Of a stretch of DNA of 64,000 nucleotides, positions 15,301-21,300 are shown in pieces. Every line of letters begins with the position of its first letter. The first letter of the stretch is position 1. This DNA is from Eledone cirrhosa (lineage: Eukaryota). The DNA lies in contig OZ024741.1 of assembly GCA_964016885.1 (NCBI GenBank), positions 75,888,001 through 75,952,000 on the forward strand, read 5' to 3'. Under the pieces are notes generated by a model. It was not told where the DNA came from. It ran no database searches and was given only the letters and a program-made list of their open reading frames with translations. Both the position numbers and the translations under genes were made by a program.

Positions 15301-18300
15301 AAATTATAAAAGAAGGGTTTTAGAAAAATGTAAATACTTTAAAATAAACAGCTTTTTATCATAGAACCTGGGTTGTTTCATGTTTAGTATAAAATGGTTT
15401 AAAATAAGAAAATAACAAAATAGAATATTCTTTACCAAATTGCTTTATTTTCTAGCTCAATGCTGGTGTCAATAAAATGCACCCAGTACACATGGTAAAG
15501 TGGTATAACTGGTCCCACAATAAAATACACCCAGTACACTCTGTAAAGTGACGGTTCTTGTGCCATGATAAAATGCACCCAGTACCCCCTGTGAGATGGT
15601 TGATGTTAAGAAGGGCGTCCAGTCACTGAAACCATGTCGAATATGGAATGTATAAGCAAAATGAAGTCTCTTCAACATGTCTAGTCTTGTACCGTGACAA
15701 CCTGTCCAAGCCATGGCAACATAGAAAATGGACATAAAAGGATGGTGATGATCATTAATATTTCTAGAGTTATTCAGCTTCATTTTCTCTACATACAATC
15801 AACTGTTGCAGATGCCATCTACATAGACATACAACCTGCTAGAAACAGCAACCAAATCTTTATTGAATATCACCTTACTGTCTGTCTTCTTCATAATCGT
15901 TGTCATCGTTGTTTGTCTTCTTTCTTCTCGAAGTATGGTGATACATAAAATGCACACATTAACTTAACATCCTGTACCACATGAGACTGCATTAACACAA
16001 CATTTTTTGAAAAGTACAAAAAATGAAATTGCATCAGATTGAGATGTAAATTCTTTACTCTGCAAATTTTAAGAAAGATGTGTCTACTAGGAAAGATTAT
16101 AAATAGTTGAATTAACAATTCCATTTTTAGATATTTTCTGCCGAATCATTACTGGATGTTAGGAGTTAGTGTAAATTTATATATATATATATATATATTG
16201 TATATAACAGATGGAAGACTCTTTAATGGCTGGTTTGACTGACCTCCATGTCAAGTTACCAATGGCAATAACTGCAGAGAACTTAGCTGTGAAGTATGGT
16301 ATCAGCCGGGATGATGTTGATGAATTTGCTCTAAGATCACAGACGAGATGGAAAGCTGGTAATTAATTTAATGATCTGATAATATTTCAATATGTCTTTA
16401 TTGATAAAATAAATTTAAAAATTAGCTTGTTTTGCAGCGTAAGGATCAAGGGCGTGAGGTGTTCAGAATTGCAAGGCAGTGTGTCGGGGAAAATCGTGAT
16501 GTTGGTGGGGAGAAGTGTATCCGAGATGATAATGGTGAATTGCTCTCACTGACACTGAAAAGAAGGTAGCATCAAAGTGCTTCTATGAAAAATTACTGAA
16601 TATGGAGAATGCATGAGAAGAAGATAGATTGTTTCAAGTTGACCCAACAAAGACCGGCTGAACAAGTCAGCAATAGTGTAGTAAGTAAAGTAATCAGGGA
16701 TATGAAGATAGGCAAAGCAGCTGGACTTTCGGGGATAGTTGCCAAGATGCTGAAAACATCTGGTATGGTGGGTCATACCATAGTCACCTATATTGTAAAC
16801 CAAGTAATACAACATGACATAGCAGCAGCATTATCAACTGCTACAGGGGTGAAGGAGGTACTCTATACAGAGAAAACTATAGAGGCATTAAGTTGGTTGA
16901 CAAGATTATGAACGTCACAGAAAGAGTTATAGCACAGCTGATTAGGGATCAAGTTAACCTAGATAAGATGCAGTTTGGATTTGTGCATGGTAAATGTACC
17001 ACAGATACCCTCTTCCTTGTGAGGCAACTGCAGAAGTACCTATCTGAAAGCACCAAGTAACCTTACTAACCCAGCAACAAGGCTCATAAACATTAACCAC
17101 GAACCAGTTCACAGTAGATATACTAAACTTATCCCTATAGCTCGCGTAGCATTACCAGCAACTGTGCGCAACTACATTTATGCAACCCACCATATCTATA
17201 AACATGTTGCCTGAGATACACCAATGCATTATATATATATATATATATATAAATTTACCATTATATCTAATTTAGATTCTATAATAAATAGATGCACTGA
17301 CTTGTTTTCTCTCTGCTTGCATAAACTCCTCAAAACATTCCACAAAGTATACAGCTAATATCCAAAACTTTATCAATTTAGAATCTTTTTCTCAAAGGCA
17401 CATATATATATATACTTCTTTAAAAATATACCCATCTTTCTACCTTATTTCAAAGTTATTTATTATACATTATATAATACTTGTTACTCATTCTATATCA
17501 CTCCTATTTATCACTTCCCTTTCTTCATTTTCCCTTTCTTCTCTTTTTCTTTTAATGTCTAACCCCTAATCTGTACCTTTTCTCACTGTTGCCTAACATA
17601 GAAACAATTATTACACAATACAATACATTCTTACTTTATATTACCTTGCAAAAATCCTTCGTAAACATAAACATTTTTTGACGTTAGATTATTCATCCTC
17701 AATTCATTATTTTTTTCTCCCTTTCATCTAACTTACTCATGCTCATCTCACAATATATCCTTACTTACATTACTTGTTGTTCTTTTTAATAATACATATC
17801 AACATTTTCTTTCCATCGCACATATTATTAAACCCTTAAATATTATTCTTAATACATATTAACATTTTCTTTCCATCGCACATATTATTAAACCCTTAAA
17901 TATTATTCTTAATACATATTAACATTTTCTTTTCATCGCACATATTATTAAACCCTTCAATATACAAACCTTAACTTTACATTATTTTTGTCTTCGTTAA
18001 TTTTCAAATTCTTTTAATTTTTACATTATCTTCCAACGGTTTTTCAACCTCTCTACGTAAAACAATATATTTCTCTCAGTTATAAAAGCTATCTCTCTCT
18101 CTCTATCACCCATCTCTCCTCCTATCTCATCCTTCCTCATTATACTCCTCCCTCTCCACTTTTTACTCTCATCTCCTCCTCTTTTTCATCCTTTCCACCC
18201 CCCCCCCCTAATTTTTTTTTAATTTTTTTTTTCCCAATATCACACATCAATCTAAAACTACTTTTCATATGTTGATTTAAAACTGCATTATCCACAAGTG

Positions 18301-21300
18301 TTTTTTAACCTTCATATCATGTTCTCCTGTTTTATCTGATGAAAACACAAATATTATTGCATGATGATATTTGTTTTTGAAATGCGCATAATAAAATACA
18401 TGGAACTCTTTTAACCATCTTTTGTTCTTATATATTATATATATATATATATATATATATCAATCAAGGGTCGTGTATTGGACCATATATGAGATGTTTG
18501 TATAATAAACAACCTTTTATCTTCATTGTGAATTTTTTTATTAACTGTGATCAGCTTATTTATATAAATATATATAAATATATATATATCCAAAATTAAG
18601 ATAAAATGAATTAAATTAAATTAAATCAAATTAAATTAAGGGTGTCAATCAATTTCTAGTTGATATATATAAATATATATATATATATATATATATAATA
18701 TAAGATCAAAAGATGGTTAAAGGAGTTCCATATATTTTATTATCCGCATTTCAAAAACAAACATCATCAAGCAATAATATTTGTGTTTTCATCAGATAAA
18801 ACAGGAGAACATGATATGAAGGCTAAAAAAACACTTGTTGATAGTGCAGTTTTAAATCAACATATCATATGTTGATTTTAAACTGCACTATCAACAAGTG
18901 TTTTTTTAGCCTTCATATCATGTTCTCCTGTTTTATCTGATGAAAACACAAATATTATTGCTTGATGATGTTTGTTTTTGAAATGCGCATAATAAAATAT
19001 ATGGAACTCCTTTAACCATCTTTTGATCTTATATTATGCATACTCCAGTCCCACAAACTGTAGAGTGCTTCTTATCCGATATCTGCATTGCTTTATTGTA
19101 CTACAATAAAACTCACCTCCTACATTATATATATATATATATATATATATACATATATATATATGAGACAGCCAAAGCTGTTAATCATACATTTAATTGA
19201 CCTACATGTTTTGCCAGGCTACATAACAATGTGCAGCATGTTCTCATTGCAATCTGTCTCTATCAAAACATATTTAAATTAACAAGATATTACCTTCCAT
19301 TGTACATCTTAGTAGTCTGTATATATATATATACATATATATATTAGAAAGGTTGCTTAAAATTGTACTTAAAACATTCAGACATTAACTGAGTAAGCAC
19401 TCAATAAATGTAAACAGTGTAAATTTTATTTTCTGAAGCAAAAAGTGGCAGTACAAAAGACCTGCCGCTCCTCCAAATAAAAAAAAAATCGATCAAATAA
19501 AGTACTATCTAAAGTTGTGTGGTGTTCGATGAAAGAATGCTTGCATTTATAAGAGTAATTGCACATGGCTGATGTTTGTTGTGTATACATTTGTGGAGCT
19601 TCAGCCTGTGATGCAAGAGGAAGTGCTCAATGAAGTAAAGGCAATGCAACTGCATACATACATACATACAATGTGCCTGTGTTTTTAACCCAATCATTAA
19701 CATATTTCTAAGCAAAAATAATACCTATTATTTTCAAATAATTTTGAAATTATTCAAGAATTTGGAGGGATTTAGCTATATAACTAACTTTCTCATTATT
19801 AAGCTGTTGTTTGAACCATGTTTTAACAAAAGTTCTTACATAAAATTATAAAGGAAGGGTTTTAGAAAAATGTAAATACTTTAAAATAAACAGCTTTTTA
19901 TCATAGAACCTGGTTTGTTTCATGTTGTTTAGTATAAAATGGCTTAAAATAAGAAAATAACAAAATAGAATATTCTTTACCAAATTGTTTTATTTTCTAG
20001 CTCAAGATGGTGGACATTTCAAGGCAGAAATAGCCCCATTAACAGTAAAAGGCAAGAAAGGTGATAAATCTTTACAAATTACTTTTATTATTTTTTTTAC
20101 TTAATTTTTATAAAAGACTAATTTAAAAAGATAAAAATAATGAAATTATTATGTACAGTGCTCAGGTACACTACAATTTGTCAACTGTTATTCTCTAATG
20201 TTGTTTTTCCTTCACCGCATTAATTAGTTCTAGTTAGATTTTTAATGTTCTGTCCATTAAATATGTTAGAACTAACTCGGCTATTGTCTTTCTGTTCAGG
20301 TGGCATCTCTGAGTAATTTATTCTCTAAAAAATTCTATTCTTACAACTATTTATCAATTTTGTACATCTATTCAGTGTTTCTTTTATCACTACTTCAGCA
20401 AGTCTATAATACACTGATGAGTTTATAAAACTATGATTTGTCTAGAGCTTTCTCCCTTATTTGACCCCCAAAATGAAAATATCATTAGTCCTTAACTAAT
20501 TTTTTAATTTTTCTCTTCAGCATTTCACCATGATATCACAGCTATTGTACCTCCATGATATTACAGTTAGCATACTTGTATCCTATCAGCTATTGTACCT
20601 CCATGATATCACAGCTACTATACATCTATGATATCACAACCACCATCTCACCATAATATCACTGTTAACATTACACCATATTGCCATACTTCCATGTTAC
20701 CTACCATCCCACCATAATATCACTGTTTATATAATTCCATGTTACCATACTTCCGTGATATCACAGCTACCATACCCTCATGATATCACTGTGACCATAT
20801 TTCCATGATATCACTGACCATATTCCCATGATATCACTGTGAGCATACTGCCATGATATCTCAGTTTCCATACCTTTAGTTACCATAACATAATGATATC
20901 ACCACCAACAGACCCTCATGATATCACACCTAAAACTAATATTATTAGTGATTCAATACTATATTTTAATCTATTAATTGTAGGTCCTGAATCTTTTGAA
21001 GTTGATGAACATCCTAGAACAACCACCAAGGAATCTTTAGCCAAATTACACCCTGTTTTTAAGAAAGGGGGTGTTGTTACTGCAGGAAATGCTTCAGTAA
21101 TTATTATTTCTTATCTGGTCTTTATTATTATTATTAGACTAGCTGGCCCTGTGCTGTCAAAAATGATGGCTAATTGTAATATCTATACATAATATAAATA
21201 AAGAGATGTTTGTTGGTTGGTTGGTTGGTTCCTTCGTGTTGACTCACACAAGTGATACAAACACACAGCTGTGACGAATCTTAGAACGCTGGACTTCTAT

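What the first reader, a model, noticed from the sequence alone, without database searches (positions are those of the whole stretch)
18266..19037. Two sense hammerheads plus an antisense copy forming a 343-bp palindrome inside an ACAA2 intron
Seen: a ~170-bp pseudo-LTR unit occurs three times (+18266, -18695, +18867). The last two form a near-perfect palindrome centred on 18866. Both intact ribozymes lie on the ACAA2 pre-mRNA strand, with predicted cuts 601 nt apart. Inference: A1+A3 could dimerize through the TGCGCA palindrome and cut the pre-mRNA, releasing a ~600-nt circularizable RNA. Alternatively the antisense copy could sequester either ribozyme in a 170-bp duplex, which is also an ADAR/Dicer substrate. 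That would be a built-in switch or silencer letting the host gene tolerate the insertion.
Basis: partly seen in the sequence, partly recalled or inferred. Interest (0 to 1): 0.72.

Follow-up and report, generated by a model that had tools for sequence, protein, structure and literature searches.

The report
Twin-primed Penelope stump in thiolase intron
The three ribozyme-bearing repeats are leftovers of two likely separate insertions of a very common Penelope-type jumping gene, and the palindrome is one of more than 1,400 in this genome, likely made when two copying reactions ran off the capped start of the element's RNA, so it is unlikely to be a switch for the host gene.

Summary
In detail: three ~170-bp units, a 343-bp palindrome centred on 18866, and two + strand type I hammerhead motifs with predicted cuts 601 nt apart, in an ACAA2-like intron (16359-20000). 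The switch reading does not. The unit is the pseudo-LTR of an abundant Hydra-type Penelope-like retrotransposon (at least 8,758 unit starts). A1 ends a 5'-truncated copy. A2+A3+tail is a separate insertion whose layout recurs at 1,428 or more junctions. The A1+A3 double hammerhead is predicted ~100 kcal/mol above the A2:A3 hairpin, so no circle is expected. The family data bear on an open question. In 50 of 50 palindromes exactly one arm has the 87-nt tail, and arms stop at one site. Twelve arms carry an extra G there that neither the element nor the partner arm templates (8 tail-less, 4 tailed). This fits two cDNAs primed on both target strands and running to a capped RNA start, not the published self-priming model. 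The scan reported TSS-centred, twin-primed Penelope palindromes before on other DNA of this genome; no listed note mentions the extra G.

The parts
16359..20000 (+). Intron of the ACAA2-like thiolase gene that holds all parts
   Evidence: GT..AG borders; spliced contig in run X5 skips 3642 nt
17251..18437 (+). Insertion 1: 5'-truncated Penelope-like copy (last 35 codons of the ORF, 3' UTR, pseudo-LTR A1, no tail), between (TA)n tracts
   Evidence: 40 other-or-self body matches at 93-100%; ORF end matches longer copies at 91-100%; translation [10 protein letters not shown]...KVYS*
18329..18397 (+). Type I hammerhead motif of A1, predicted cut after 18390
18588..18663 (.). Small head-to-head stump of a second, unrelated (TA)n-inserted repeat family in the spacer
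   Evidence: L138-L141
18695..18865 (-). Insertion 2, arm A2: inverted pseudo-LTR without tail; hammerhead core on the - strand with loop III TGCGGA
18866..18866 (.). Single central base C: likely the complement of a cap-derived G on A2, but it could be the element's own -1 C on A3
   Evidence: ambiguous class
18867..19037 (+). Insertion 2, arm A3: pseudo-LTR starting at ATATG (inferred RNA start); hammerhead 18930-18998, predicted cut after 18991
19038..19124 (+). 87-nt tail: the 5' UTR stretch that follows the pseudo-LTR in near-full-length copies, then (TA)n

Best explanation
These are two neighbouring, likely independent insertions of an abundant Penelope-like retrotransposon with Hydra-clade features into (TA)n tracts of an ACAA2-like intron, and the palindrome is the family's routine short product, likely formed by twin priming. 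Inferred mechanism: the RT-endonuclease cuts both strands of (TA)n. One end primes at the far end of the tail and the other at its near end. When this happens at the 5' pseudo-LTR, both cDNAs run off the capped RNA start at ATATG, often adding a cap-derived base, and are joined head to head, often through the self-complementary ATAT. In the pre-mRNA, A2 is predicted to pair first with A1 and then with A3, so the two sense hammerheads are never free together. Silencing, and any ADAR or Dicer processing, would be an automatic by-product and not an evolved host switch.
For: Shown: at least 8,758 unit starts, 3,376 of them attached to the element body; 1,428 head-to-head junctions, control 0. L051 has inverted fragment + unit + tail + 777-codon RT/EN frame + UTR + unit + tail. 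Of the first 50 palindromes on contig C1, 50 have the tail on exactly one arm, and nearly all outer ends run into TA repeats. Arms differ by 1.0 substitution within a locus against 6.4 between loci (49 loci). 20 of 50 junctions are fused through 2-4 nt of ATAT. 1,687 unit starts have G at -1 where body-linked copies have C. In the 50 loci, 12 arms have a G that the partner arm cannot explain, 8 tail-less and 4 tailed, with both arms in L063. Folding. Literature: the inverted copy plus one-sided tail is typical of these elements (PMC8557442, PMC3846280); a Poseidon protein cuts and extends both strands and starts RT at the two tail ends (PMC11167929); an extra G marks mRNA capping at full-length L1 insertions (PMC11702581).
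Against: No 5'-end or cap data: the RNA start is inferred from DNA only. 7 of 50 junctions, like the window's own, have a single C/G filler that is ambiguous between cap and native base. L005 has tail sequence on both arms, an exception outside the 50-locus set. Some between-locus arm pairs are identical (5th percentile 0), so same-template origin is not proven, and gene conversion between arms is not excluded. The 50 loci were chosen by a pattern that needs both arms to reach near the start, so they cannot show how often arms stop earlier. Pfam gave 0 hits on the ORF. Folding is equilibrium modelling without proteins, and the Poseidon hammerhead is protein-assisted (PMC11167929).
Confidence: 0.85

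Rival explanations
1. Fold-back or self-priming: one cDNA (or an antisense template, as proposed in PMC3846280) folds on the ATAT palindrome and is copied back, giving the inverted arm.
For: 16 of 50 junctions are perfect fusions over 4 nt of ATAT and 4 over 2 nt; arms are nearly identical within a locus; the model is published for Adineta elements.
Against: A fold-back copy of the tailed cDNA should not carry its own extra G, yet 8 of 12 unambiguous G arms are the tail-less ones and L063 has G on both. 12 of 50 junctions have 1-4 nt filler between two full arms. Tail-less G-started units also occur alone or joined to inverted tail or ORF pieces (L002, L015, L024, L098).
Confidence: 0.15
2. 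One reading: A1+A3 dimerise through TGCGCA, cut the pre-mRNA and release a ~600-nt circle, with A2 as a regulatory switch kept for the host's benefit.
For: Both motifs are intact and on the sense strand; with A2 forced unpaired the double hammerhead costs only +5.5 kcal/mol, less than either monomer (+11.8, +9.1); dimer activity is described for such motifs (PMC4209133). After A3 takes A2, A1 is predicted free and could dimerise in trans.
Against: +100 kcal/mol with A2 present; no computed snapshot has both free. The arrangement is expected by chance about 1.5 times. A1 is likely a different insertion. Metazoan PLE hammerheads tested in PMC4209133 cleave weakly even as dimers. A spliced contig spans the intron at depth 93.8 in run X5, though that individual is not shown to carry the insertion.
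Confidence: 0.04
3. The palindrome is an assembly or library artefact.
For: No laid contig bridges the window's exact junction with 31 letters each side among the rows shown.
Against: 1,428 junctions with varied centres; strict one-tail asymmetry; 2 differences between the arms; contigs of public runs hold inverted junctions of the family, e.g. 18867 to 18266 at depth 345.6 in X1 (X1 may be the source sample).
Confidence: 0.02

Closest known systems
Hydra clade of Penelope-like elements (Craig et al. 2021, PMC8557442), e.g. Hydra-1_Obim
   Same: Single ORF, RT then C-terminal GIY-YIG endonuclease, DKT, CxCX5C linker, no CCHH, CxxC and CxH, hammerhead in the pseudo-LTR, (TA)n targets; shared strings seen side by side with the supplement (SDKTNNLY, FVQFDI/FIQFDI, NFLDV.L.LD.G).
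   Different: A different family: other hammerhead sequence than Hydra-1_oBim, RWI for RWK, 3,555-nt period against 'generally <3 kb', 87-nt tail against 30-40 bp, a long Asn-rich linker. No tree was built.
Inverted pLTR + one-sided tail insertions (Adineta Pen2a, D. virilis Penelope; PMC3846280) and opposite-strand hammerhead pairs 100-700 bp apart (PMC4209133)
   Same: Head-to-head pseudo-LTRs, tail on one side, palindromic junction.
   Different: Here ORF-less stumps number over 1,400, stop at one site and carry an extra G; the published reading is self-priming on an antisense template.
LINE-1 twin priming and cap-derived extra G (PMC11702581)
   Same: Second reverse transcription from the opposite target end; extra G at complete 5' ends; end joining with microhomology.
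   Different: In L1 the second priming is internal, upstream of the first cDNA, so arms do not overlap. Here both arms copy the same segment from two fixed start sites, giving a palindrome.
Non-LTR retrozymes (bioRxiv 10.64898/2026.07.22.740005; PMC7229834, listing only)
   Same: Type I hammerheads with a palindromic loop III, PLE-derived.
   Different: No tandem repeat unit: the 601 nt between the cuts is a one-off mosaic that contains an antisense copy and another family's stump.

Membership tests
Penelope-like element (EN+) | Single ORF with RT and GIY-YIG endonuclease | tested here: met
   777-codon frame in L051 with one internal stop; GASDS, YRDD, LIY...YFG; matches Hydra alignments by eye. 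Pfam gave no hit.
Penelope-like element (EN+) | Partial tandem forming pseudo-LTRs | tested here: met
   L051: unit+tail, ORF, body, unit+tail; L054 similar
Penelope-like element (EN+) | Inverted 5'-truncated copy and one-sided tail | tested here: met
   50 of 50 palindromes; also long insertions
Penelope-like element (EN+) | Type I hammerhead in the pseudo-LTR | tested here: met
   Core pattern in 98 of 100 arms, GAAATGCGCATA in 92 of 100; stem I end pair varies G-U/A-U. Rfam: no hit.
Penelope-like element (EN+) | Ribozyme self-cleavage | not testable with these tools
   needs an in vitro assay
Penelope-like element (EN+) | Target-site duplication | tested here: inconclusive
   ends lie in (TA)n, so a duplication cannot be read
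Hydra clade | C-terminal EN lacking CCHH, with CxCX5C linker, CxxC and CxH | tested here: met
   CNCPVKNKC at 636, CNLC 736, CLH 764, one Cys between LIY and YFG (definition)
Hydra clade | DKG modified to DKT | tested here: met
   HSDKTNN at 123
Hydra clade | RWK motif | tested here: inconclusive
   RRLRWI in L055: RW present, K replaced
Hydra clade | Insertion into (TA)n | tested here: met
Hydra clade | Phylogenetic placement of the RT | not tested
   no reference proteins were available as tool sequences
Naiad clade | N-terminal EN, no canonical hammerhead | tested here: not met
   EN is C-terminal and a hammerhead motif is present
Non-LTR retrozyme | Tandem units each with a hammerhead, no autonomous ORF | tested here: not met
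   the spacer is not a repeated unit; the unit is attached to an RT ORF

The most novel reading that the evidence does not exclude
Penelope inverted pseudo-LTRs are made by twin priming. The two tail ends are strand-paired start sites, one per target strand, and both cDNAs can run to the capped 5' end of a sense RNA and copy the cap as an extra G. This would replace the antisense self-priming model, map the promoter from genome sequence alone, and mean the element has seeded this genome with well over a thousand perfect ~170-bp hairpins that silence their own hammerheads in any read-through transcript.
Probability: 0.6. Interest if true: 0.55.

Novelty: new member of a known kind. Interest (0 to 1): 0.3.

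Why it matters
As a locus it is ordinary: transposon debris in an intron, with no sign of a host switch. As a family sample it matters modestly. How Penelope-like elements make their inverted ends and tails is stated as unresolved (PMC8557442, PMC3846280). The strict one-tail rule and the extra G give a clear, testable prediction for the existing in vitro system (PMC11167929). The more than 1,400 hairpins are also a likely bulk source of nuclear double-stranded RNA.

Tried and rejected
Rfam scan of the window: 0 hits. Pfam on the element ORF and its window remnant: 0 hits. Sequencing runs: no RNA holder listed; X5 is taken as RNA only because it holds a spliced contig. Editing could not be called: A>G differences seen in X5 also stand in DNA-like runs and the family is multi-copy. 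Empty-site or locus-specific evidence was not obtained; unique stretches between TA tracts have zero depth, which the tool says proves nothing. Naiad was considered and rejected on domain order. Retrozyme was rejected (no tandem unit). The idea that GCGC dimerisation is needed to form palindromes was not supported: L107 and L128 carry the non-palindromic TGCACA on both arms, though later mutation plus conversion is possible. The tail tally printed was faulty (boolean sum, L066 missed); one search recounts it. The raw G tally (7 tailed, 13 tail-less) included ambiguous junctions; one search keeps 12 unambiguous arms. Literature searches for twin priming or cap G in Penelope elements listed no paper that appears to treat it; those listings were not opened, except PMC8557442. 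PMC7353768 gave no passage. Look-ups of earlier findings by sequence and by words returned nothing.
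Full report
1. Observation. A1 and A3 carry GTTTTAT-CTGATGA-stem II-GAAA-TGCGCA-TA-ATAAAAT, with predicted cuts after 18390 and 18991, 601 nt apart. A2 has the same core on the - strand with TGCGGA. Thiolase exons lie on the + strand, and one exon's best PDB match is mitochondrial 3-ketoacyl-CoA thiolase 4c2j (the name ACAA2 for it is recalled). The intron is 16359-20000. Rfam found nothing at gathering score, and isolated A1 and A3 fold no better than shuffles, so 'ribozyme' is a motif-level call.

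2. What it is. The unit is a dispersed, young repeat in a 3.0-Gb genome: the best 41 matches are 95-100% identical, and an exact 25-27-nt start pattern occurs 8,758 times, control 0. Of these, 3,376 are attached to the upstream element body. The 856 nt upstream of A1 belong to the same element. Longer copies reveal an RT plus C-terminal GIY-YIG frame. L051 shows the full layout: inverted fragment, unit, tail, a 777-codon frame with one internal stop, 3' UTR, unit, tail; the period is 3,555 nt. DKT, CxCX5C, CxxC, CxH, absence of CCHH and (TA)n targets match the Hydra clade as defined in PMC8557442 section 11. The protein resembles Hydra-1_Obim in that paper's supplement by eye, but the hammerhead differs. 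Pfam did not recognise the ORF, and no tree was built.

3. Anatomy of the locus. Insertion 1 (17251-18437) is a 5'-truncated copy: the last 35 codons, the 3' UTR and A1, no tail, between TA tracts. Insertion 2 (18695-19124) is A2 + A3 + an 87-nt tail, again between TA tracts. A1 differs from A2 and from A3 by 9 substitutions in 150 nt, while A2 and A3 differ by 2, so they likely come from different templates. The spacer holds a stump of a third, unrelated repeat. With these copy numbers, about 1.5 palindromes genome-wide should have another sense unit within 700 bp upstream by uniform chance.

4. The palindrome is a family trait. A junction pattern finds 1,428 head-to-head sites, control 0. 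I examined the first 50 of them on contig C1 (15, 35). All 50 have the tail on exactly one arm. Arms within a locus differ by 1.0 substitution on average against 6.4 between loci (49 loci; one with a shortened arm left out). Junctions vary: 16 fused over 4 nt, 4 over 2 nt, 12 with 1-4 nt filler, 18 with an arm short of ATATG. In the long inverted insertions read, one outer end likewise has the tail and the other does not. One exception seen is L005, with tail sequence on both arms.

5. The extra G. Body-linked copies read TTTTC-ATATG, yet 1,687 unit starts read G-ATATG, against 5,462 with C and, by subtraction, 1,609 with A or T. In the 50 loci, 12 arms have a G that the partner arm's templated sequence cannot supply: 8 tail-less, 4 tailed, both arms in L063. 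Seven junctions with a single C/G filler, the class of the window's own centre, are ambiguous and were set aside. An extra G reflects mRNA capping at full-length L1 insertions (PMC11702581, passages). I infer that ATATG is the RNA start and that each arm is its own run-off cDNA.

6. Likely mechanism. A purified Poseidon protein cuts and extends both target strands and starts reverse transcription at two internal sites that delimit the tail (PMC11167929, parts 1-2 of 4 read). Applied here, by inference: one target end primes at the tail's far end and the other at its near end; at the 5' pseudo-LTR both reach the cap after about 258 and 171 nt; and the ends are joined, often through ATAT. The published alternative is self-priming on an antisense template (PMC3846280, passages). 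It explains the fused junctions but not a G on the tail-less arm or on both arms. Three literature searches listed no paper that appears to apply twin priming or cap G to Penelope elements; this covers the open library only.

7. Effect on the host transcript. In an RNA of 18250-19130, the A3 core pairs with A2 at p>=0.999. The A1+A3 double hammerhead costs +100 kcal/mol, the A3 monomer +37 and the A1 monomer +8.9. With A2 forced open the dimer costs +5.5. Snapshots show A1 captured by A2 before A3 exists and released only when A3 is complete. The circle is therefore not expected. Metazoan PLE hammerheads tested in PMC4209133 were inactive as monomers and weak as dimers, and that paper already notes opposite-strand pairs 100-700 bp apart (parts 1-2 of 4 read). 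Run X5 holds a contig spliced across this intron, but that individual is not shown to carry the insertions. ADAR or Dicer action on the hairpin is plausible but untested, and it would apply to every palindrome of the family. A freed A1 dimerising in trans remains possible.

8. Papers seen. PMC8557442: passages, section 11, supplement passages. PMC11167929 and PMC4209133: first half of the text. PMC3846280 and PMC11702581: passages. bioRxiv 10.64898/2026.07.22.740005: part 1 of 5. PMC7229834: listing only.

9. Verdict. A real feature and a new family member of a known kind; the regulatory reading is not supported. Earlier scan notes on other DNA of this genome reached the same twin-primed, start-site-centred reading (unreviewed AI notes, seen after I had formed and recorded my reading). 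One calls the host an octopus, which I did not test. Interest 0.3, carried by the one-tail rule and the extra G.

Noticed in passing
window 18588-18663; L138-L141: A tiny head-to-head stump of a second (TA)n-targeting repeat family; other copies form inverted structures with two different outer ends, the same layout as the main family. No hammerhead motif was found within 600 nt in 4 loci.
   Followed up: partly
window ~42300-42720: Another inverted pair with hammerhead-like cores on both strands (42395 -, 42622 +), unrelated in sequence and about 210 nt apart; likely another Penelope-type insertion.
   Followed up: no
window ~39750-39820: Degenerate relative of the same hammerhead (CTGATGA...GAAATACGTATA ATAAAAT) next to a TA tract.
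   Followed up: no
window 28958-30913 (-): 651-aa open frame with RVT_1 and PHD-finger matches, a LINE-type retrotransposon.
   Followed up: partly
window 20500-20930: Degenerate 25-nt tandem array (about 11 listed copies) in the next ACAA2 intron.
   Followed up: no
window 17783-17962: Three 60-nt tandem copies inside the element's 3' UTR, also present in other copies such as L051.
   Followed up: partly
L012 flanks: About 48 nt of host flank appear inverted on the two sides of the insertion, hinting at flank duplication during repair.
   Followed up: no
L081, L084, L085, L101 junctions: Tandem repeats of ATATGTTG at the junction, suggesting RT slippage or re-priming at the RNA 5' end.
   Followed up: no
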